Virus record (IMG/VR): IMGVR_UViG_2802429225_000008 | DNA from: a virus | Lineage: Duplodnaviria > Heunggongvirae > Uroviricota > Caudoviricetes | DNA length: 38,441 nucleotides | Strand: one strand, 5' to 3' | Part shown: positions 1-12,774 of the stretch, one piece after another | Layout: every line of letters begins with the position of its first letter | How positions within the stretch are numbered: position 1 is the stretch's first letter | The notes under the pieces: generated by a model | Told to the model about the DNA's origin: nothing | Seen by the model: the letters and a program-made list of their open reading frames with translations, nothing else | The model's database searches: none | Position numbers and translations under genes: made by a program

Positions 1-723
1 TTACGGGGTAATGCCAACCGCTGCCGCCACTTTGTCGCCACTAGTGCTTTGTTTTTCGAATTCATCTAAGGCTCTTTCAACATCAGAAAGATACTCTTTG
101 AATGAGTTCAAGATCATGCTTAACGAGCCCCCCATAAATAGGACCTGTTTTCCATCTTTTTTAAAAAAATCAGGATATTTTTCTATAAGTTCAATAATGC
201 TTTTAATATTTTGCCCATCGTTTTCTAAGTATTTTGCATCATTATGCGCACAACTGTTTCTTAATTTTGTTATTTTTTTGATATTCGAATAGTGGGATGT
301 TGACTTCATCCCTATCATTTTTTTGATAAATAGATGGCTCCTCTCAAATCCACTTCCTTTGAGATCTGAAACATTTATAGGAGAATGATGTCTATTAGCA
401 AAGTTGTTACAGAATTTTTCTATTTCGTGCTCAAAAATTCCGAATATAGTTAAGAATACTGACCTGCGGATAATACTTGGGTAGTATTCTAAAAACATTT
501 CATCGAGATCTAGCGATGAGCTGGTGAGTCCCATGTAATGATCAATTGACTGGTATACACCATCTTCCGGAGATATTTCAATTATATATTCTTCAGGTCC
601 TTTGTCTTTATATTCTGCTATGCCCTTAGCGATTGATGATTCGCTATGAGTGATTAACGTCTCGATAATATCAAATGTTAAGGAGAAGTCGAATATTGGT
701 AATTGAAACAAAAACTTAACCAT
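1..723 (-). CDS. HEPN-motif protein (Rx4H: RNSCAH), AT-rich cargo gene between attL and int; C-terminus runs off the window
   Basis: ORF 1..756 on the minus strand contains ...KLRNSCAHND..., a canonical HEPN Rx4-6H motif. Likely start is the second ATG at 723 (AAGG 7 nt upstream); an ATG at 756 would overlap int by 23 nt. No stop codon before position 1. Confidence 0.55.
   Translation of the reverse strand: MVKFLFQLPIFDFSLTFDIIETLITHSESSIAKGIAEYKDKGPEEYIIEISPEDGVYQSIDHYMGLTSSSLDLDEMFLEYYPSIIRRSVFLTIFGIFEHEIEKFCNNFANRHHSPINVSDLKGSGFERSHLFIKKMIGMKSTSHYSNIKKITKLRNSCAHNDAKYLENDGQNIKSIIELIEKYPDFFKKDGKQVLFMGGSLSMILNSFKEYLSDVERALDEFEKQSTSGDKVAAAVGITP
19..42. repeat. attL: Putative attL core (cgctgccgccactttgtcgccact), direct repeat of 35585-35608
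   Basis: 22 of 24 positions identical to the sequence immediately after the ogr stop codon; lies beyond the int/cargo end of the prophage. Confidence 0.5.
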
Positions 724-733
724 GCTTGAACCT

Positions 734-1765
734 TTAAGAATCTGATTTAGTAACATCCAAAGTTGCTAGTGGATTGAAACGAAGAGCTGTCTCTAAGTGA
801 TCAGGTGATAGATGAGCATAACGCATAGTCATTTTTATGTCGTGATGTCCGAGGATTTTTTGCAAAGCAAGGATGTTTCCACCCGACATCATGAAATGCG
901 CCGCAAACGTATGACGCAGAACGTGTGTAAGTTGACCGCGAGGGAGCACGATAGACGTTTTTTCCATCACGGATAAAAATTGAAAATAGCAGTCTGTGAA
1001 GAAATTGAACCCATCAAGCGCCATGATCTCTTCATAAAGCTCTTTACTGATAGGGATGCTTCTGTTTTTCTTCCCCTTCGTTCTTACAAAGGTAATTCGG
1101 TATTTGGTCACCTGTGATCGGGTAAGGTTTATTGCTTCTCGCCAGCGTGCGCCTGTGCTTAAGCATATCTTGACTACCAGTGCCAGAATTGGGTCCTGAC
1201 GTTTGCAATCATCCAGCAGTTCAACAATCTGCTCATGGGTAAGCCATGCCATCTCTTTTTCTGCGATGGTGAATTTTCGCATGTTCTCCAGTGGGTTTGG
1301 ATACGACCATTCGCCCAGGCGGGATAGTTCGCTAAAAACACTACTTAGATAGCTTTGCTCTAGGTTAATGGTGACCGGGCTGGCCCCTTTCTTCCATTTC
1401 TCGCTGAAATAGATCTCACCTGTCAGTCGTTTATCTCGATAATGGGCAAACATTTTAGATGTGAGATCGGTTGCAAGGGGATTGCCCAGAGCGTCAACCA
1501 TCAGCAGCAATTTGTCATAGACATGCTGCCCAGCAGTCAGAGATTTACCATGTAGTTTGAACCATAGCTCAACCACGTCTTTCAGGGTTCGACGATCTAC
1601 TGATTCGCCCAGCCAGGGCTTTGCTTCGGTTTCTTCCATCGTGTGACGCTCAAAAGCCAGTGCTTCGCCTTTGGTGGCGAATTGTTTACGCACACGACGC
1701 CCACTACGTCCGGCGGGGTAACATTCGCAAAGCCATTTTCCTGTGGTGAGTTTTCGTACTGCCAT
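734..1765 (-). CDS. int: Tyrosine recombinase, P2-type phage integrase
   Basis: Translation carries the conserved C-terminal integrase box (...LTHVLRHTFAAHFMMSGGNILALQKILGHHDIKMTMRYAHL...) and resembles P2 Int throughout; start taken at the internal ATG 1763-1765 (MAVRKLTTGKW...). Confidence 0.9.
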   Translation of the reverse strand: MAVRKLTTGKWLCECYPAGRSGRRVRKQFATKGEALAFERHTMEETEAKPWLGESVDRRTLKDVVELWFKLHGKSLTAGQHVYDKLLLMVDALGNPLATDLTSKMFAHYRDKRLTGEIYFSEKWKKGASPVTINLEQSYLSSVFSELSRLGEWSYPNPLENMRKFTIAEKEMAWLTHEQIVELLDDCKRQDPILALVVKICLSTGARWREAINLTRSQVTKYRITFVRTKGKKNRSIPISKELYEEIMALDGFNFFTDCYFQFLSVMEKTSIVLPRGQLTHVLRHTFAAHFMMSGGNILALQKILGHHDIKMTMRYAHLSPDHLETALRFNPLATLDVTKSDS

Positions 1766-1951: not shown

Positions 1952-2143
1952 TTATCGCGAGTTTTTAGTACAGATTTTTTTTGATTTACTAATAGTTCCA
2001 TCATTGCAAACGAACTTTCCATCGGAGGTACAGTGAGAGACACCTCCCTTTTTCCCAGAACAAGGATAATTTTTAGCATAGGTAGTTAGTGGGTTTAATA
2101 ACAAAGAGCATGATAAAACCACAAAAAATACCTTACCAAGCAT
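1952..2143 (-). CDS. Small secreted Cys-rich peptide (63 aa; predicted signal peptide, 4 Cys in the mature part)
   Basis: Strong RBS (GGGAGGA) upstream of the ATG; hydrophobic N-terminus [23 protein letters not shown] followed by KNYPCSG...C...C...C; sits in AT-rich DNA between int and cI. Confidence 0.5.
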
Positions 2144-3658: not shown

Positions 3659-3955
3659 ATGCTGACGAAAGAACCATCATTTGCATCGCTGCTGGTAAAA
3701 CAAAGCCCGGCAATGCACTACGGTCACGGCTGGATCATGGGTGAGGATGGTAAACGCTGGCATCCGTGCCGTTCACAAGATGAATTGCTGTCTGAATTGA
3801 CCACGGGGAAACGGAGAAAGTCAAAATGTATGCAGCGGAAAGTGAAGTGGTTTATCAGTTTCGTTACAGAGGGGAGAGTTATTCAGTACCTGAAGATGAT
3901 TTGCTCTGTTGTTATCCGTCGTTGTCGGGCGATGGCAGTTACTTTTTCACGCTAA
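3659..3955 (+). CDS. Hypothetical early protein (Fil-like position)
   Basis: ORF with RBS AGGTG before ATG 3659; overlaps the next ORF by 130 nt in another frame, so its extent is uncertain. Confidence 0.4.
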   Translation: MLTKEPSFASLLVKQSPAMHYGHGWIMGEDGKRWHPCRSQDELLSELTTGKRRKSKCMQRKVKWFISFVTEGRVIQYLKMICSVVIRRCRAMAVTFSR

Positions 3956-4050
3956 AGGATGGGACGTTTTTACGGGGAGAGCAGGTTAAAGAGATGATAC
4001 GAAAAAATATATCTCCTCTTGAGCGTTACCGTAAGAACAAAGAGCGATAG
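3826..4050 (+). CDS. Hypothetical early protein
   Basis: ATG 3826 preceded by GGAGAAAG; 74-aa ORF. Confidence 0.5.
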   Translation: MYAAESEVVYQFRYRGESYSVPEDDLLCCYPSLSGDGSYFFTLKDGTFLRGEQVKEMIRKNISPLERYRKNKER

Positions 4051-4072
4051 TTGCGTTTTGGGGATATGAATT

Positions 4073-4414
4073 ATGGCAATTAATGGCGCTGCGGCGACTG
4101 TTCCATTAAGCCCAGGTGAACGCCTGAATGGACTTAATCATATTGCGGAATTAAGGGCGAAAGTATTTGGCCTGAATATTGAGTCAGAGCTTGAGCGGTT
4201 TATTAAAGATATACGTGATCCACGGGATGTTAATTATGAACGAAATAAACGGGCACTGGCTGCTATATTCTTTATAGCAAAAATTCCAGCTGAACGTCAT
4301 AGCATCAGCATTAATGAGCTGACCACTGACGAAAAGCGGGAGTTGATTAAAGTAATGAATCATCTTCGTGCAGTGGTGAGCTTATTTCCCAGACGGCTAG
4401 CCATGCCGAATTAA
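4073..4414 (+). CDS. Hypothetical early protein
   Basis: 113-aa ORF with RBS GGGGA, same orientation as the early operon. Confidence 0.55.
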   Translation: MAINGAAATVPLSPGERLNGLNHIAELRAKVFGLNIESELERFIKDIRDPRDVNYERNKRALAAIFFIAKIPAERHSISINELTTDEKRELIKVMNHLRAVVSLFPRRLAMPN

Positions 4415-4481
4415 CCAATTAATGAAATTCATGGCGTAAACCCGCCGGGCATTCCTTTATCTAAATTCAGGAGAATTGATT

Positions 4482-4715
4482 ATGCGTAATATTGAAACCC
4501 TCTCGACTAAAACCGGACCGGATGACGCAGGACTTAATATTTTACTGACAGAGGCTCGTCTGGAAGAACGTCGGGCAAGGGCTGAGGCAATGGCTGCCCG
4601 CCTTGATAGCCTTGCGTGTCATATTACATCCCGCCAGCTAAACCACGTCGAAGCAGCAGAACTGCTGCGTGTGACCGCTGAAGCAATCCAGAACGAAGCG
4701 CAGGAGGTCCACTAA
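4482..4715 (+). CDS. Hypothetical small protein
   Basis: ATG 4482 preceded by CAGGAGAA; the ORF-track start at 4476 is a TTG. Confidence 0.55.
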   Translation: MRNIETLSTKTGPDDAGLNILLTEARLEERRARAEAMAARLDSLACHITSRQLNHVEAAELLRVTAEAIQNEAQEVH

Positions 4716-4942
4716 TGGCTGATGCAATGGATCTCGTACAGCAGCGCGTTGAAGAAGAACGCCAGCGCCATATCCGTGCTGCCCGTACCAAAACGCCGGG
4801 CGTATCCCGCGTACTTTGCATTGAATGTGAAGCACCAATTCCGCCAGCACGACGCCGCGCCATTCCGGGTGTGCAGCTTTGCATTACCTGTCAGGAAATC
4901 GCAGAGCTGAAAGGCAAGCACTACAACGGAGGTGCTGTATGA
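4715..4942 (+). CDS. TraR/DksA-family C4 zinc-finger protein
   Basis: Paired CxxC motifs (CIECEAPIP ... CITCQEI) in a 75-aa protein, as in phage TraR-like proteins. Confidence 0.75.
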
Positions 4943-5241
4943 CAAGGGCAGTGCGTATCCATCAATTAAAAATTGCACCTAAGTATTTCAACGCTGTGGT
5001 TGCAGGTCAAAAGACGGCTGAACTTCGTAAAGACGATCGTGGCTATAAAGTTGGTGATGTTCTTTCTCTTTGCGAATGGAAGCATGGCGTATTTACGGGT
5101 AGGGAATGGGCCGCTGTTATCTCTCATGTGCTTCCGGTTAATGACGTCATGTCAGTTTCAGAACAATGGGTGATGCTATCAATTCGCCCATTAACCCCAT
5201 TAGAAGCTTTAGGATATGTTATTGCAGGAGGTGCTGTATGA
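4939..5241 (+). CDS. DUF3850-like (ASCH/PUA-like) protein
   Basis: [44 protein letters not shown]; start ATG 4939 after GGAGG; the gene is bracketed by identical 15-nt junctions (4928-4942 and 5227-5241). Confidence 0.6.
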
Positions 5242-6095
5242 GCACCATCCTGAAATGGGCGGGAAATAAAACCGCCATTATGTCCGAACTGAAAAAACAC
5301 CTTCCTGCTGGCCCGCGACTGGTTGAACCTTTCGCGGGTTCCTGTGCTGTGATGATGGAGACGGATTACCCCAGCTATCTGGTTGCGGATATTAATCCTG
5401 ATTTAATCAACCTCTATAAAAAGGTTGCCGCTGATTGTGAATCGTTTATATCTCGCGCCAGAGTTTTATTTGAGATCGCAAACAGGGAGGTGGCTTATTA
5501 CAACATAAGGCAGGAGTTTAATTACTCAACTGAAATTACTGATTTCATGAAAGCGGTATATTTCCTGTATCTCAATCGTCACGGTTACCGTGGTTTATGT
5601 CGCTATAACAAGAGCGGGCATTTCAACATTCCCTACGGTAATTATAAAAATCCGTATTTCCCTGAAAAAGAAATTCGCGCATTTGCAGAAAAAGCCCAGC
5701 GAGCAATGTTTATCTGCGCCAGCTTTGATGAAACGCTGGCGATGTTGAAGGCGGGGGATGTGGTGTATTGCGATCCGCCGTATGACGGTACGTTTTCCGG
5801 CTATCACACTGATGGTTTCACTGAAGATGACCAGTATCACCTGGCATCCGTTCTTGAACATCGGTCATCAGAAGGACATCCGGTCATTGTTTCTAACAGT
5901 GACACATCCCTGATCCGTTCGCTGTATCGCAATTTTACTCACCACTATATCAAGGTAAAACGCAGCATCGGTGTGGCAGCTGGCGAGGGTAAATCAGCAA
6001 CAGAAATCATTGCTGTTTCCGGGCCGCGCTGCTGGGTGGGATTTGATTATTCGCGTGGCGTGGATAGTTCTGCCGTGTACGGAGTGCGTGCATGA
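5238..6095 (+). CDS. dam: DNA adenine methyltransferase (Dam-like, D12 class)
   Basis: ILKWAGNK N-terminal motif, FAGS motif I and DPPY catalytic motif; start ATG 5238 after GGAGG. Confidence 0.85.
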
Positions 6096-8506
6096 GCCAT
6101 GCTGATATGAACAACTGCAGCGGCTTTAACGAGGCCGCCGCAGCATTCTCATGGAACAGCCCGAAAAAGGCGATTAACCCTTATCTGGACCCGGCGGAAG
6201 TTGCGCCGGTTTCTGCGCTTTCAAACCTGATCACTCTGTACGCTGCCGATAACAAGCAGGAACAACTGCGCCGCGAGGCACTGAGTGATCAGGTCTGGGA
6301 GCGTTATTTCTTTAATGAATCCCGTGATCCTGTCCAGCGCGAAATGGAGCAGGATAAGCTCATTAGCCGGGCAAAGCTGGTGCATGAGCAGCAGCGTTTT
6401 AATCCGGACATGGTCATACTGGCGGACGTTAACGCCCAGCCTTCCCATATCAGCAAGCCGCTGATGCAACGTATTGAATACTTCAGCAGCCTGGGCAGGC
6501 CAAAGGCTTATTCCCGCTATTTGCGTGAGACGATTAAACCATGTCTGGAACGACTGGAGCATGTACGCGACAGCCAGCTATCTGCATCTTTTCGTTTTAT
6601 GGCAAGCCATGAAGGGCTGGACGGCCTGCTGATCTTGCCTGAAATGAGTCAGGATCAGGTGAAGCGCCTGTCTACCCTTGTTGCCGCGCATATGAGCATG
6701 TGCCTTGATGCAGCTTGTGGTGATTTGTATGCCACCGATGACGTTAAGCCAGAAGAAATCCGCAAGACATGGGAAAGGGTGGCGGCGGAAACCCTGCGTC
6801 TGGATGTCATCCCTCCTGCGTTTGAGCAACTCCGCCGGAAAAGAAACCGCCGTAAACCCGTACCCTATGAACTCATTCCGGGTTCGCTGGCGCGTATGTT
6901 GTGCGCCGACTGGTGGTATCGGAAATTATGGAAGATGCGTTGCGAATGGCGGGAAGAGCAGTTGCGTGCTGTTTGCCTGGTCAGCAAAAAAGCATCTCCC
7001 TATGTCAGCTATGAAGCCGTGATGCATAAACGTGAGCAGCGCCGTAAGTCGCTGGAGTTTTTCCGTTCTCATGAACTGGTGAACGAAGACGGCGACACGC
7101 TGGATATGGAGGACGTGGTAAACGCCAGTAGTAGCAACCCGGCGCATCGCCGCAATGAGATGATGGCATGTGTTAAAGGTCTGGAGCTTATCGCGGAAAT
7201 GCGCGGTGACTGCGCCGTTTTCTACACCATCACCTGTCCGTCACGTTTCCATTCCACGCTAAATAACGGCAGGCCCAACCCGACTTGGACAAATGCGACG
7301 GTAAGACAAAGCAGTGATTATCTGGTCGGCATGTTTGCTGCATTTCGTAAGGCGATGTACAAAGCCGGATTGCGCTGGTATGGCGTGCGGGTGGCTGAGC
7401 CGCATCATGACGGTACAGTTCACTGGCACCTGTTGTGTTTTATGCGCAAAAAAGATCGCCGCGCCATTACTGCTTTGTTGCGTAAGTTTGCCATTCGTGA
7501 AGACCGCGAGGAGCTGGGTAATAACACAGGACCACGCTTTAAGTCTGAGCTGATAAACCCGCGCAAAGGTACACCAACAAGCTACATCGCGAAATACATC
7601 AGTAAGAACATTGACGGGCGTGGTCTGGCTGGCGAGATCAGCAAGGAAACGGGTAAATCTCTGCGTGATAACGCTGAATACGTTAATGCCTGGGCGTCTC
7701 TGCATCGTGTTCAGCAATTCCGCTTCTTTGGCATTCCGGGGCGTCAGGCTTACCGTGAACTGCGATTGCTGGCTGGTCAGGCGGCAAGGCAACAGGGTGA
7801 CAAAAAAGCAGGTGCGCCGGTACTGGATAACCCGCGCCTTGATGCCATTCTGGCTGCAGCTGATGCTGGTTGCTTTGCCACCTACATCATGAAGCAGGGC
7901 GGCGTACTGGTTCCCCGTAAATATCACCTCATCAGAACCGCTTATGAAATCAACGAAGAGCCGACCGCCTATGGCGATCACGGTATTCGTATTTATGGCA
8001 TCTGGTCACCCATTGCAGAGGGCAAGATCTGCACTCATGCAGTGAAGTGGAAAATGGTCCGTAAAGCCGTTGACGTTCAGGAGGCGGCAGCCGACCAGGG
8101 CGCTTGCGCCCCTTGGACTCGTGGCAATAACTGTCCCCTTGCTGAAAATTTGAACCAACAAGGGAAAGACAAATCAGCTGATGGGGATATCAGAACGGAC
8201 ATTACCCGCATGGATGACAAGGAGTTGCACGAATACCTGCACAGTATGAGCAAAAAAGAGCGCCGGGAACTGGCTGCAAGGTTACGCCTGGTGAAACCGA
8301 AACGGCGTAAAGACTACAAACAGCGAATTACAGACCATCAGCGACAGCAGCTCGTCTATGAACTGAAGTCCAGAGGATTTGATGGCAGCGAGAAAGAGGT
8401 CTATTTACTCCTTCGTGGCGGCAGTATTCCGTCAGGAGCAGGCCTGCGTATCTTCTATCGGAACCAGCGTTTGCAGGAAGATGATAAGTGGCGGAACCTG
8501 TATTAA
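6092..8506 (+). CDS. A: Replication initiation endonuclease (P2 gpA / 186 RepA family, rolling circle)
   Basis: 804-aa protein with the His-hydrophobic-His type block ([11 protein letters not shown]) and key-tyrosine region ([11 protein letters not shown]) typical of P2 A. Confidence 0.85.
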
Positions 8507-9505: not shown

Positions 9506-10588
9506 ATGATAAACGTTACAAACGAAATGCTCATTGATGTTGTCAGTGATGCTCTTACCGGGAAGAGGGAAAGTCTCCTCATGCGGTTGCGGATTATGGC
9601 AAAAAAACTAAAAAAAGAATCTCCTGAATTAGCGGGTAAATTAGAAGATTTACTTATTAATACAGGTGGCGCAATTGCAGTCGAAAGGGCTAATCCAGTT
9701 GTTCCTAAAATAACACCTGTTGATGCGGATACAAGACAAAAGCTGCTAGTTGAAACATATCCTGTGGTCATTGATGTTGAACCTGTTTGGCCAACAAAAA
9801 CTGATGTTCAACTGAATCGATTTGTGGCTGAGTGGGAAATGAAAGAACGCCTTTATAAAGAAGGGTTGCATCCGTCCAAATCTCTTCTTATGGGAGGACC
9901 ACCCGGTGTGGGGAAGACTTTGGCTGCAAAGTGGCTCGCTTTTAAACTCGATATGCCATTGTTAACATTAGATCTCGCAAGTGTAATGAGTAGCTACTTG
10001 GGGAAAACGGGTAATAATATTAAGGCAGTCCTCAATTATGCTTCGTCATTCCCTTGTGTACTGCTTCTTGACGAATTTGATGCGATTGCTAAAAAAAGGG
10101 ATGATGCAACAGATGTTGGAGAACTAAAAAGATTAGTTACAGTATTATTGCAAGCAATTGATGAATGGCCAAATACGTCTGTTCTTATAGCAGCAACTAA
10201 CCATGCGGAGCTGCTTGATCCTGCTGCATGGAGAAGATTCGATCGAGTTATTGATTTTGAATATCCAACACAAGACCTAATGAGAAGATATCTCTGTTCT
10301 AAAAATATTGGAGATAGCTTATCGTACTATATTGCTACAAAACTCGAAAAAGTTTCATATGCAGTTCTTGAGAGAGCTATAAATCAAGCTAAAAGAAATG
10401 CCATTATAGAAGATATTCCTTTAAGTTCAGCTTTAATTGATGAGTTGTTAGATGGCGTGTCACTTGATGATGTTATAAAAAACATGTCAAACAACAATGT
10501 ATCACAAAGAAAAATCGCTTTAGATTTGGGGATTTCAAGGTCACAAGTACGTAAGGTTTTGACGGTTGAGGATGAAGACAATGAATGA
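9506..10588 (+). CDS. AAA+ ATPase (IetA-like) of an ATPase/subtilase pair
   Basis: Walker A GPPGVGKT, Walker B LLLDEFD, sensor-1 ATNH, then AAWRRFD; AT-rich by eye; 8-nt overlap with the downstream protease gene. Confidence 0.8.
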   Translation: MINVTNEMLIDVVSDALTGKRESLLMRLRIMAKKLKKESPELAGKLEDLLINTGGAIAVERANPVVPKITPVDADTRQKLLVETYPVVIDVEPVWPTKTDVQLNRFVAEWEMKERLYKEGLHPSKSLLMGGPPGVGKTLAAKWLAFKLDMPLLTLDLASVMSSYLGKTGNNIKAVLNYASSFPCVLLLDEFDAIAKKRDDATDVGELKRLVTVLLQAIDEWPNTSVLIAATNHAELLDPAAWRRFDRVIDFEYPTQDLMRRYLCSKNIGDSLSYYIATKLEKVSYAVLERAINQAKRNAIIEDIPLSSALIDELLDGVSLDDVIKNMSNNNVSQRKIALDLGISRSQVRKVLTVEDEDNE

Positions 10589-11690
10589 TAAAAATATGCT
10601 TCTTGGCTATGGTGAAACACTAACTAACCCTGTTAAACTTAACAGAGGTGGAGGTGAAAAGAATAAACCTTACTCTTATTCAGAAAATAAACCAGTGATA
10701 TCTGCTCAACTGGAAGAGTTGATTGAGGAAATTAATACCCTTCCATTGTTAGCAATGCCTGAAGGTAAGGCTGTAGCAAAATTTGTTTTGCATCCGGCAT
10801 TCTTAGCAAAAAGTTATTTTCCAGTAAGTCTTTTTGAGCGATTTTCCCTAGAAAGCATAGGCAGTAAGGCTGTAAAAGTAAAACCTAGAAAAGATATTAA
10901 AAAAAGAGGGCGAAAAGAGGAATACACTACAGCGTGTATTTATGTTTCTGGCAAAAAAGAAAGTTTTCAATCATTCTTAGACTCTGTAAATCAAGATACC
11001 CTAACGAAAGGGCAGCAAAATGATTTTGTCACCTTAGAAAATATTTCAATACTGGAAGTTTCAGATAAAGTAAAAACGATTAATAGCAATGAAGTTATGA
11101 GTATTGAGGTCGCCTTACATACTCCTGATACAATTTCCTCTATTGTCGATAGTTTTGAAGTTTTTGCTTCGCAAAATGGTGCTGTTATAGATAAGGCAAG
11201 AAGTATAAAGGTTAAGGGGCTAACCTTTATGCCTATTAAGGCTAGTAAAGATGTAGCTTTAAAAGTTGCAGAGTTTTCATTTCTCAGGACTTTGAGAGAA
11301 CTTCCTGAATTAAGGCTAAGTGAGCCTGTTATATCACGTTCTGTGATTCAAACATCTAACCTTAGTTTACCATCTGAAGGAGCGGTAAACCCACACATAA
11401 AGGTTGCCATATTCGATGGTGGATTGGGGATCGATGATTTCAATCCTTGGGTAACAGAGTACACTTTCAACGGTAATGCTAGTACTAATGCAAAACTTCT
11501 TTCTCATGGACAGGATGTCACCTCTACTGTGTTATTTGGTGTTCTTGGCTCTGAAACGGAAAAATTAAGTGTTCCTTATTGTAATATTGACCATTATCGT
11601 GTACTGGATTCTAATGTTAATAACTCAGATGTCGATCTTTTTGACGTTCTGATCCGTATTAAAAGTGTATTAGAACAAAAAAAAATATGA
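10581..11690 (+). CDS. S8 subtilisin-like serine protease (IetS-like), N-terminal part; interrupted by a frameshift at the A9 run 11677-11685
   Basis: Contains the catalytic Asp motif (VAIFDGG) and His motif (SHGQDVTS); ends ...LEQKKI* directly after a run of nine A. Start ATG 10581 preferred (GAGGA 9 nt upstream). Confidence 0.7.
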   Translation: MNDKNMLLGYGETLTNPVKLNRGGGEKNKPYSYSENKPVISAQLEELIEEINTLPLLAMPEGKAVAKFVLHPAFLAKSYFPVSLFERFSLESIGSKAVKVKPRKDIKKRGRKEEYTTACIYVSGKKESFQSFLDSVNQDTLTKGQQNDFVTLENISILEVSDKVKTINSNEVMSIEVALHTPDTISSIVDSFEVFASQNGAVIDKARSIKVKGLTFMPIKASKDVALKVAEFSFLRTLRELPELRLSEPVISRSVIQTSNLSLPSEGAVNPHIKVAIFDGGLGIDDFNPWVTEYTFNGNASTNAKLLSHGQDVTSTVLFGVLGSETEKLSVPYCNIDHYRVLDSNVNNSDVDLFDVLIRIKSVLEQKKI

Positions 11691-11739
11691 TTATATCAAT
11701 CTGAGCTTAGGACCTAGATTACCTGTTGATGACGATGAC

Positions 11740-12774
11740 GTGCATGTGTGGACCTCAACTCTTGAGGAGATACTTGCATCAGGAGAAACACTTTGTACTG
11801 TCGCGGTTGGAAATGATGGTCAGCTGCCTGCCAAGTTAAATCGAATTCAACCACCTGCTGATTTAGTTAATGGTCTGTCAGTAGGTGCAGCAACCTCTTT
11901 ATCTGATAGTTGGGAAAGATGTTCTTACAGTTGTATTGGTCCTGGACGAAGCCCTGGCTTTGTGAAGCCTGATGGAGTTGCATTTGGAGGACATTCTGAT
12001 GAGCCATTCCAGGTATACAGCCCTATGGTTAATGGTCTTGCCCGCACTGCGGGGACTAGCTTTTCAGCTCCATTAGTCCTGAGGCAAGCAATCGCGTTAA
12101 GTGCTTCTCTAAATTACAACATTACACCACTTACGGCTAAAGCTCTGCTTATACATCATGCGGAGAGCAATAATATCAATCGTGCTGAAGTTGGTTGGGG
12201 ACGATTTCCTCATGATCTTAGTGAAGTAATATTTTGTGATGATGATGAAGTTAAAGTTATATATCAAGGTACTTTAAAACCATCACAACACATGCGAGCA
12301 CCTATTCCGTTTCCAGATGTACCTATGCGTGGATGTGTAAATTTAAGAGCGACATTCTGCTTTTCCAGTCCTGTAGATGCGGAACATCCTTTGAATTATA
12401 CAAGAAGCGGTCTAGAAGTAACCATGAGAAAAGGTGTTTCAGATAGTTCCGGGTTAACGTTTCCTCTTTTTAATCTAAAAAATGTTTATGCAGATGAAAA
12501 TGAGCAACGTGTTGATGCACATAAATGGGAGACTACGTTAAGAAGTGAACACAAATTTAAACCGAATGAGCTGACAAACCCATGCTTTGATATTATCTAC
12601 TATGGTAGAGACTGTGGTATGCCTATTGATGTTGACGAGTTAGAAGAACTACCATATGTTCTTGTCGTGACTTTATCTGCTGAAGAAATGCCGGATTTAT
12701 ATAACCTAATTAGGCAGAAATATCAAACCTTACAGCCTATCCAAGTTCAACAGCAAATTATGTTACGTACTTAA
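11740..12774 (+). CDS. S8 subtilisin-like serine protease (IetS-like), C-terminal part in the +1 frame
   Basis: The frame is open from 11674 and reads KKKYDYINLSLGP...CTVAVGNDG...GTSFSAP, i.e. the subtilase INLSLG block, oxyanion-hole Asn and catalytic Ser. Continuous with the upstream ORF if one A is removed. Confidence 0.7.
   Translation: MHVWTSTLEEILASGETLCTVAVGNDGQLPAKLNRIQPPADLVNGLSVGAATSLSDSWERCSYSCIGPGRSPGFVKPDGVAFGGHSDEPFQVYSPMVNGLARTAGTSFSAPLVLRQAIALSASLNYNITPLTAKALLIHHAESNNINRAEVGWGRFPHDLSEVIFCDDDEVKVIYQGTLKPSQHMRAPIPFPDVPMRGCVNLRATFCFSSPVDAEHPLNYTRSGLEVTMRKGVSDSSGLTFPLFNLKNVYADENEQRVDAHKWETTLRSEHKFKPNELTNPCFDIIYYGRDCGMPIDVDELEELPYVLVVTLSAEEMPDLYNLIRQKYQTLQPIQVQQQIMLRT

What the first reader, a model, noticed from the sequence alone, without database searches (positions are those of the whole stretch)
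1..756. HEPN-motif cargo gene wedged between attL and the integrase
A low-GC ORF on the minus strand abuts the int stop codon and carries a canonical HEPN Rx4H motif (KLRNSCAHND). Genes at the att-int junction of P2-like prophages are typically horizontally acquired, and HEPN proteins are frequently RNase effectors of abortive-infection or toxin-antitoxin systems. The ORF reads through the putative attL core and off the window, so its 3' end and any partner gene are not visible.
Basis: partly seen in the sequence, partly recalled or inferred. Interest (0 to 1): 0.6.

Follow-up and report, generated by a model that had tools for sequence, protein, structure and literature searches.

The report
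Prophage HEPN gene inserted in integrase tail
A complete 240-residue gene for a predicted HEPN-type RNA-cutting enzyme has been inserted into the last few codons of the integrase gene of a 186/P2-like E. coli prophage; it is most likely an untested single-gene anti-phage defence, a new member of a known kind.

Summary
The low-GC ORF is real, but it is complete: ATG at 723, stop codon at window 3..1. It does not run off the window.

**HEPN assignment.** It is a HEPN-fold protein.
- R155 is kept in 90/90, N156 in 87/90 and H160 in 89/90 homologues that share 20-48% identity.
- It falls below the thresholds of every Pfam and PADLOC model.

**It is phage cargo.** The same gene with the same integrase sits at two different chromosomal sites. 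attL lies about 75 nt to the left of the window, in the 3' end of rybB.

**New finding.** A ~713-bp, 33% GC cassette (window ~45-757) was inserted inside the 3' end of int. The HEPN ORF reads in frame into the old Int tail (GDKVAAAVGITP*) and uses its stop codon. Window 1-42 is identical in about 1,100 E. coli genomes. It contains a 21-nt repeat that occurs on both attP arms.

**Variable slot.** Related prophages are empty at this junction or carry other small genes there.

**Context of homologues.**
- 45-47% identical alleles sit at the same junction in Salmonella, Serratia and Rouxiella.
- One lies in a P4-like satellite.
- One lies inside a type I R-M locus.
- One lies beside Dsr1.
- No conserved partner gene was found.

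**Verdict.** This is probably a solo abortive-infection RNase, co-transcribed with int in lysogens. Function is inferred, not shown.

The parts
1..723 (-). Complete gene for a 240-aa HEPN-fold protein (WP_000238244.1 with one substitution, L8F). ATG at 723..721, TAA stop at 3..1.
   Evidence: ORF list and RefSeq annotation. Homologues all start at MVKF. AlphaFold model pLDDT 86.2.
244..261 (-). Codons for R155-N-S-C-A-H160, the Rx4H (RNxxxH) motif predicted to be the RNase active site.
   Evidence: R155 90/90, N156 87/90, H160 89/90 in alignment A2.
424..480 (-). Codons for the second conserved block, P82-S-x-x-R86-R-S...E98-H-E (long helix 73-111).
   Evidence: P82 88/90, R86 90/90, E98 89/90. 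Helix assignment.
45..757 (-). Inserted low-GC cassette of about 713 bp. It supplies a new Int C-terminus (DVTKSDS*), a 10-nt spacer with a ribosome-binding site, and the HEPN ORF except its last 12-14 codons.
   Evidence: Alignment with cargo-free and other-cargo relatives. GC 33.0%.
1..44 (-). Former 3' end of int (codons ...GDKVAAAVGITP plus the stop). It is now the 3' end of the HEPN ORF and part of the attP P' arm.
   Evidence: Identical over window 1-42 in about 1,100 E. coli genomes, where it is annotated inside int. Cargo-free Int ends ...ATLPSGDKVAAAVGITP*.
20..40 (+). 21-nt repeat GCTGCCGCCACTTTGTCGCCA, copy on the P' arm. Probable Int arm-type binding site (inferred).
   Evidence: Two copies in the window, 0 expected in shuffles.
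35586..35606 (+). Second copy of the 21-nt repeat (one mismatch to the first), just after the ogr stop on the P arm.
734..1765 (-). Tyrosine integrase (343 aa) whose last 7 codons (734-757 including the stop) come from the cassette.
   Evidence: Pfam Int_N 2.7e-32 and Phage_integrase 4.1e-22. C-terminus comparison.
35662..35675 (+). attR core AACAAAAAACCCAT, which is the 3' end of the RybB sRNA gene. The matching attL core lies outside the window, 75-88 nt left of position 1.
   Evidence: Comparison of L002 and L015 flanks with the window end. Rfam RybB at 35662..35740(-), 106.5 bits.

Best explanation
**What it is.** Window 1-723(-) encodes a stand-alone HEPN-fold protein that is mobile cargo of a 186/P2-like prophage integrated at rybB.

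**How it got there.** A cassette of about 713 bp was inserted within a ~6-nt stretch of the integrase gene, between the last codons common to all the compared integrases (...NPLATL) and the DNA of the P' arm of attP. Int acquired a new 7-residue tail. The HEPN ORF runs in frame into the old Int tail and stops at the old int stop codon.

**How it is probably expressed.** No promoter-like or terminator-like site lies between int and the gene. It is therefore probably transcribed with cI and int in the lysogen. The transcript probably ends at a hairpin plus U-run formed at attL.

**What it probably does.** The protein is most likely a metal-independent endoribonuclease with R155, N156 and H160 (plus R86 and E98) at its active site. 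It would stay inactive in the healthy lysogen and cut host or phage RNA (tRNA or mRNA) when an infecting phage triggers it, stopping the infection. This is abortive infection by a single protein, as in HepS or AbiD/AbiF.

**Shown:** gene completeness, insertion anatomy, mobility, motif conservation, predicted HEPN-like fold, and defence-type neighbourhoods of homologues.

**Inferred:** co-transcription, RNase activity, trigger, and defence phenotype.
For: - **Complete ORF:**
- **Insertion inside int:** cargo-free Int ends ...ATLPSGDKVAAAVGITP*. The window's Int ends ...ATLDVTKSDS* and the HEPN protein ends ...QSTSGDKVAAAVGITP*.
- **Old int end retained:** window 1-42 is identical in about 1,100 genomes.
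- **Mobility:** the same gene plus int sits beside rcdA/rybB in one genome and inside a TonB-dependent receptor gene near ptsG in another. Sequence identity starts at the att junction.
- **Variable slot:** the junction is empty, or holds an 89-aa gene, a 110-aa gene (BL21) or this gene.
- **Published hotspot:** a 2026 survey lists int-att as a minor P2 defence hotspot holding 3% of P2 systems (PMC13586616).
- **HEPN, family size:** the family has 2,068 clusters at E<=1e-3.
- **HEPN, conserved residues:** R86 and R155 are invariant. E28, P82, E98, C105, N156 and H160 are kept in at least 94% of 90 members.
- **HEPN, profiles:** PADLOC RTasHEPN hits 70/90 members (best 7.5e-10) and Pfam PF18735 hits 16/90 (best 4.2e-8).
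- **Defence association, same junction:** diverged homologues (45-47% identical to this protein) follow int or int fragments in Serratia, Salmonella and Rouxiella.
- **Defence association, other contexts:** homologues lie in a P4-like satellite beside a DUF4238 gene, between HsdR and HsdM of a type I R-M locus, and next to Dsr1 and an LA2681-HEPN gene.
- **Persistence:** the gene stays intact where int has decayed.
- **No internal signals:** no promoter-like or terminator-like site between int and the gene.
- **attL terminator:** 9-bp hairpin plus U-run.
Against: - No experiment exists for any family member. No paper mentions the accession.
- The window protein is below threshold for every HEPN model: PF18735 scores 17 bits against a cutoff of 28.4, and the best PADLOC E-value is 0.005.
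- No sequence relative has a solved structure.
- No hit in 50,697 deposited phage genomes.
- How a toxic RNase would be kept silent without an antitoxin is unknown.
- Only about 20 homologous loci were inspected, so the defence association is anecdotal, not statistical.
Confidence: 0.6

Rival explanations
1. It is the toxin of a toxin-antitoxin or addiction module that stabilises the prophage. The antitoxin would be a small protein or an RNA that was not recognised.
For: - Many short HEPN proteins are toxins paired with MNT antitoxins, and these are the best structural matches.
- The gene persists next to decayed integrases.
Against: - Int lies 10 nt upstream. Downstream there are only 74 nt of attP arm, which are also present in cargo-free prophages.
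- No neighbour is conserved across loci.
- Rfam finds no RNA family here.
- The protein is about 100 residues longer than HepT toxins and has an extra N-terminal helix and beta-hairpin.
Confidence: 0.1
2. It is a phage-benefit gene rather than a host defence. Examples are an RNase used in host takeover or counter-defence, or a regulator of the prophage's own lysis-lysogeny or excision decision.
For: - It lies in the int operon and overlaps attP arm DNA.
- It carries Int's former C-terminal tail.
- HEPN domains can be non-catalytic RNA binders (PMC3710099).
Against: - Most related prophages lack any gene at this junction, so it is dispensable for the phage.
- Homologues occur outside phages, in an R-M locus, beside Dsr1 and on plasmids.
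- The catalytic-type residues are strictly conserved.
- The Int-derived tail is absent from all of the aligned homologues below 74% identity and is modelled as disordered.
Confidence: 0.15
3. It is host DNA outside the prophage, or a spurious ORF in AT-rich junction DNA.
For: - It sits at the very edge of the element, and the att core is not in the window.
Against: - It lies between int and the att junction in two different chromosomal sites.
- More than 2,000 homologous clusters exist, with conserved residues.
- The fold prediction is confident.
Confidence: 0.01

Closest known systems
HepS of Salmonella prophage Gifsy-1 (PDB 9oik; PMC13043305)
   Same: - Both are prophage-encoded single proteins of about 220-240 residues with a HEPN domain and no antitoxin.
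- HepS was shown to be an abortive-infection tRNA anticodon nuclease.
   Different: - No detectable sequence similarity: no PDB hit at E<=10 with either profile.
- The host phage type (myovirus-like 186/P2) and the locus are different.
- The trigger (tail-tip protein J for HepS), the oligomeric state and the RNA target are unknown here.
RiboL-PSP-HEPN family (Pfam PF18735), said to be distantly related to AbiD/AbiF (PMC3710099)
   Same: - It is the best Pfam match for the window protein and for 16/90 family members (best 4.2e-8).
- The match covers the RNxxxH helix.
   Different: - The window protein scores 17 bits against a cutoff of 28.4. A central family member scores 26.9 bits.
- Only the C-terminal third of the model aligns.
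- No L-PSP fusion or ParB neighbour was seen in the loci examined.
MNT-HEPN (MntA-HepT) toxin-antitoxin systems
   Same: - These are the best structural matches (1jog, 5yep, 7ae2, 8xdj, 7bxo).
- Both have the Rx4H motif.
   Different: - There is no MNT partner.
- The protein is about 100 residues longer and has an N-terminal helix and beta-hairpin module.
- It sits in a phage operon.
Defence hotspots of P2-like phages (old/tin and Z/fun loci in PMC9122126; the int-att minor hotspot in PMC13586616)
   Same: - The cargo is variable among otherwise similar prophages.
- The location between int and att matches the minor hotspot reported in 2026.
   Different: - Here the cargo lies inside the integrase reading frame, in a stretch of about 6 nt. 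It replaces Int's tail and borrows its stop codon.
- The gene is not recognised by PADLOC v2.

Membership tests
HEPN superfamily | Conserved Rx4-6H motif | tested here: met
   R155 90/90, N156 87/90 and H160 89/90 in 90 homologues at 20-48% identity. The motif alone would occur by chance in 19% of shuffles.
HEPN superfamily | All-alpha helical-bundle HEPN fold | tested here: met
HEPN superfamily | Metal-independent endoribonuclease activity, usually from a dimeric composite site | not testable with these tools
   Needs biochemistry.
Pfam PF18735 RiboL-PSP-HEPN | Score at or above the gathering cutoff (28.4 bits) | tested here: not met
   17.1-17.4 bits for the window protein and 26.9 bits for family-centre member P0190. 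One of 90 members reaches E 4.2e-8, which by extrapolation is about 34 bits.
Pfam PF18735 RiboL-PSP-HEPN | Fusion to endoRNase L-PSP or an operon with ParB (PMC3710099 Table 1) | tested here: not met
   Not seen in the window or in about 20 homologous loci.
MNT-HEPN toxin-antitoxin | Adjacent minimal nucleotidyltransferase antitoxin gene | tested here: not met
   Int is upstream and attP arm then host DNA is downstream. No conserved neighbour.
HepS-like single-protein HEPN abortive infection | Sequence homology to HepS | tested here: not met
HepS-like single-protein HEPN abortive infection | Phage-protein-triggered tRNA cleavage that causes abortive infection | not testable with these tools
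   Needs phage challenge and RNA analysis.
Catalogued defence systems (PADLOC-DB v2) | Significant match to a system model | tested here: not met
   Best hits are HEC-01A at 0.005, Cas13a at 0.016 and RTasHEPN at 0.025, all confined to the motif region.
P2-like int-att cargo hotspot | Located between int and att, with different content in related prophages, and mobilised with the phage | tested here: met
   Four states of the junction, two chromosomal sites, and the published hotspot.

The most novel reading that the evidence does not exclude
**Reading 1.** The protein founds a large, unstudied family (over 2,000 clusters at 50% identity) of single-protein abortive-infection RNases. Its N-terminal helix and beta-hairpin module would sense a phage component.

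**Reading 2.** The last few codons of the integrase are a previously undescribed, narrowly defined cargo slot, bounded by Int's functional end and an attP arm site. Cargo placed there is automatically expressed from the lysogenic cI-int operon.

**A bolder variant, about 5% likely.** The Int-derived tail on the HEPN protein, or Int binding to the arm site inside its coding sequence, couples nuclease activity or expression to Int.
Probability: 0.35. Interest if true: 0.55.

Novelty: new member of a known kind. Interest (0 to 1): 0.4.

Why it matters
If the defence role is confirmed, three things follow.
- It would add an uncatalogued single-gene HEPN defence family. The family is widespread in Enterobacterales prophages, satellites and plasmids, and much more widely in metagenomes.
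- Defence-finding tools currently miss this protein.
- It would show that temperate phages can carry cargo inside the dispensable tail of their integrase gene, between the enzyme's functional end and an attP arm element. This helps when delimiting prophages and when mining int-att junctions.

It is not surprising in kind. HEPN nucleases in prophage hotspots are well known.

Tried and rejected
- **Partner gene off-window:** rejected. The left flank, read in L001 and L002, holds 74 nt of attP arm and then host genes.
- **Repeats downstream as an RNA antitoxin:** the AACAATAAGTTAG x2 repeats are also present in cargo-free prophages, so they belong to attP. Rfam finds only RybB.
- **Dazbog-like pairing with DUF4238:** seen only in the Raoultella satellite. 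The homologue does not hit DzbB, and the neighbour hits the DUF4238-Pers model only weakly.
- **RT-associated system:** the PADLOC RTasHEPN model matches the family, but no reverse transcriptase lies near the gene in any locus examined. 'RTasHEPN' appears in no paper.
- **Deposited phage genomes:** no match.
- **PDB sequence searches with two profiles:** nothing meaningful.
- **AFDB fold library:** unavailable.
- **The search for related loci with the broad alignment:** failed. The narrow alignment gave only 9 loci.
- **Own promoter for the gene:** none found between int and the ATG.

Full report
**1. What is in the sequence**

Window 1-756 holds a minus-strand ORF.

- *The ORF is complete.* Its TAA stop is window 3..1. 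RefSeq annotates exactly this gene (window 1-723, 240 aa, WP_000238244.1, 'hypothetical protein') in 25 complete E. coli genomes at 99.4-99.6% DNA identity. The window copy differs by one residue, L8F.
- *The start is ATG 723 (MVKF...).* It lies 10 nt after the int stop (734-736) and is preceded by AAGG. All homologues begin there. ATG 756 lies inside int.
- *The attL core is not in the window.* This is set out in section 2.

Other points hold. The cassette is 33.0% GC, against 46.8% for int and 49.3% for the prophage. KLRNSCAHND is present, with R155 to H160 encoded at 261..244.

**2. Where the prophage ends**

- The neighbours are a 186-type CI repressor, CII, Fil, a replication endonuclease and P2-type structural genes.
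- The right end of the window holds ogr, then the RybB sRNA gene (35662..35740(-), Rfam 106.5 bits), then ybjL.
- Comparing the left flank in L002 with the window's right end gives a shared core, AACAAAAAACCCAT. This is window 35662-35675 at attR and L002 5913-5926 at attL, which is 75-88 nt left of window position 1.
- The core is the terminator tail of RybB.
- In strain DSM 103246 the same int-HEPN end abuts a truncated TonB-dependent receptor gene next to ptsG. Identity to the rcdA-site copy begins at the att junction.
- The gene therefore moves with the phage and is not host DNA.

**3. The gene sits inside the old integrase reading frame**

- Window 1-42 is 100% identical in about 1,100 of 5,426 E. 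coli genomes. In most of them it is annotated as part of int.
- The protein ends compare as follows:

| Sequence | C-terminus |
|---|---|
| Cargo-free Int (L015, 350 aa) | ...RFNPLATLPSGDKVAAAVGITP* |
| Window Int | ...RFNPLATLDVTKSDS* |
| Window HEPN protein | ...EKQSTSGDKVAAAVGITP* |

- A cassette of about 713 bp (window ~45-757) was therefore inserted between the ATL codons and the GDK codons.
- The HEPN ORF continues in frame through the old Int tail to the old stop codon.
- Two other cargos occupy the same place. One is an 89-aa protein (L016) and the other a 110-aa protein in BL21 (L017). Both leave window 1-40/45 as a non-coding remnant.
- All three insertions break within about 6 nt of each other.
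- From evenly spaced rows, roughly 70% of related prophages are empty at this junction. This is a rough sample, not a count.

*Why the stretch is so narrow (inferred).*
- To the right lies the part of Int shared by all four integrases compared, which ends 19 residues after the catalytic Tyr in RYAHL.
- To the left lies a 21-nt sequence, GCTGCCGCCACTTTGTCGCCA (window 20-40). It recurs with one mismatch just after ogr (35586-35606). There are two copies, with none expected by chance.
- In the circular phage the two copies flank the core on the P and P' arms in the same orientation.
- Each contains two GYCGCCA heptamers 11 nt apart.
- This is the layout expected of Int arm-type binding sites. That is an inference from general knowledge of tyrosine-recombinase attP sites and was not tested.

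*The Int-derived tail is a by-product.*
- It occurs only in homologues at least 74% identical (Raoultella, Cronobacter, Phytobacter, Citrobacter, Enterobacter). It is absent from all of the aligned, more distant homologues.
- It is modelled as disordered, with pLDDT below 50 for residues 231-240.

**4. Is it a HEPN protein?**

*Direct profile searches on the window protein are sub-threshold.*
- Pfam RiboL-PSP-HEPN: 17 bits against a cutoff of 28.4. Abi_2: E 0.04.
- PADLOC: HEC-01A 0.005, Cas13a 0.016, RTasHEPN 0.025.
- PHROGs: an unannotated family at 9e-10 and an 'abortive infection resistance' family at 0.0026.
- NCBIfam: nothing.

*The family gives the evidence.*
- There are 40 close clusters in Enterobacterales.
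- A profile search of 1.84 billion representatives finds 2,068 clusters at E<=1e-3 and 523 at E<=1e-10. Most of the full-length proteins among the 150 listed are about 205-250 aa and match over nearly their whole length.
- In 90 members at 20-48% identity to the window protein, R86 and R155 are invariant.
- E28, E98 and H160 are kept in 89/90, P82 in 88/90, N156 in 87/90 and C105 in 85/90.
- 70/90 members hit the PADLOC RT-associated HEPN model (best 7.5e-10). 16/90 hit PF18735 (best 4.2e-8). Others hit Cthe_2314-HEPN, CARF-HEPN, AbiD and Cas13 models.

*The structure model agrees, with moderate strength.*
- The AlphaFold model is confident: pLDDT 86.2, pTM 0.81.
- It has long helices at 14-41, 73-111, 145-161 and 200-236, and two beta-hairpins.
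- Most of the best Foldseek PDB hits are HepT toxins, but with E>=0.4.
- No solved structure is related by sequence.

*Conclusion.* It is a HEPN-fold protein with a catalytic-type motif. It is an outlier of, or neighbour to, the RiboL-PSP-HEPN family, which Anantharaman et al. place near AbiD/AbiF (PMC3710099). It is not a formal member of any curated family.

**5. Partner genes and context**

No neighbour is conserved across loci. The contexts found were:

- *Same int-att junction, diverged alleles.* Serratia marcescens has an intact int followed 48 nt later by a homologue 45% identical to the window protein. Salmonella and Rouxiella have homologues 46-47% identical to it that follow int fragments.
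- *Enterobacter.* 75%-identical copies sit where int is fragmentary or not called, while the HEPN gene is intact.
- *Raoultella.* A homologue lies in a P4-like satellite between the primase and a DUF4238 gene. DUF4238 is a class of single-gene defence found in P4 hotspots.
- *Alteromonadaceae.* A homologue lies between HsdR and HsdM of a type I R-M system.
- *Serratia inhibens.* A homologue lies next to an LA2681-HEPN protein and Dsr1.
- *Plasmids.* 147 plasmids carry homologues, including IncHI2 plasmids and Klebsiella plasmids of about 110 kb that carry phage-like genes.
- *Deposited phage genomes.* None has the gene.

This is the pattern of a mobile defence gene, but it rests on about 20 loci.

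**6. Expression (inferred)**

- No promoter-like or terminator-like site lies between int and the ATG.
- In P2 and 186, int is transcribed with the immunity repressor from the lysogenic promoter. This is established knowledge, not tested here.
- The gene should therefore be expressed in lysogens.
- Downstream, the phage arm plus core forms a 9-bp hairpin (AACCCGUUU/AAAUGGGUU) followed by UUUUUGUU. This looks like an intrinsic terminator and mirrors RybB's own terminator.

**7. Mechanism and rivals**

- *Best explanation:* a solo abortive-infection endoRNase, analogous to HepS of Gifsy-1. HepS is a single HEPN protein and a tetramer. Tail-tip protein J activates it, and it cuts tRNA anticodon loops (PMC13043305).
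- *Rival 1:* a toxin with an unseen antitoxin. No candidate was found.
- *Rival 2:* a phage-benefit RNase or regulator. Most relatives lack the gene, and homologues occur outside phages.
- *Rival 3:* host DNA or a spurious ORF. This is refuted.

**8. Novelty and score**

- The kind of element, a HEPN nuclease in a prophage hotspot, is well known, and the locus was recently flagged.
- New here are the uncatalogued family and the precise anatomy: cargo inside the int reading frame, borrowing Int's tail and stop codon and bounded by an arm repeat.
- Interest is 0.4.

Noticed in passing
window 9506-12774 (+): The main P2 hotspot, between the DinI-like gene and the portal gene, carries an IetAS defence system. 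IetA (9506-10588) hits at 6.7e-84. IetS appears split into two ORFs (10566-11690 and 11740-12774) that match the N- and C-terminal halves of the IetS model, so it may be disrupted.
   Followed up: partly
window 35662-35740 (-): The RybB sRNA gene (Rfam 106.5 bits) overlaps the attR core. The prophage integrates into the 3' terminator of rybB and leaves an intact copy at attR.
   Followed up: partly
window 20-40 and 35586-35606 (+): A 21-nt direct repeat lies on both attP arms. Each copy holds two GYCGCCA heptamers 11 nt apart. These are probably Int arm-type sites, and one copy lies inside coding sequence.
   Followed up: partly
L002 5927-6000, the 74 nt left of window position 1: The attP P' arm holds two direct AACAATAAGTTAG repeats and a GGTGGTCAGTGGTGG element. 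These are also present in cargo-free prophages. They may be IHF, Int or Apl binding sites.
   Followed up: no
window 1952-2143 (-), and the same slot in L015, L016, L018 and L023: The slot between cI and int is also variable. It holds a 63-aa YdcA-family ORF here. Relatives hold a DUF4041 protein, a DUF4276 gene with an AAA ATPase, a KAP NTPase (PADLOC PDC-S20, 2e-84) or a TIR-effector-like protein.
   Followed up: partly
L001 5028-5927: In strain DSM 103246 the same prophage end lies inside a truncated TonB-dependent siderophore receptor gene next to ptsG. The junction resembles the att core only loosely (about 7 of 12 bases). It may be a secondary attachment site or a rearrangement.
   Followed up: no
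L018-L022 about 3900-5000; L006 and L009 upstream of the homologue: In Enterobacter and Salmonella the integrase next to the HEPN homologue is fragmentary or not called, while the HEPN gene is intact. This suggests the gene is retained in decaying prophages.
   Followed up: partly
window about 5500-8500 compared with L026: The replication endonuclease ORF lies at 6092-8506 in the window but at 5509-7923 in strain SHP24. The window's early region is therefore about 580 bp longer. SHP24 also carries a different hotspot cargo (DUF6236 plus a PIN-domain protein) and a truncated tail-fibre gene.
   Followed up: no
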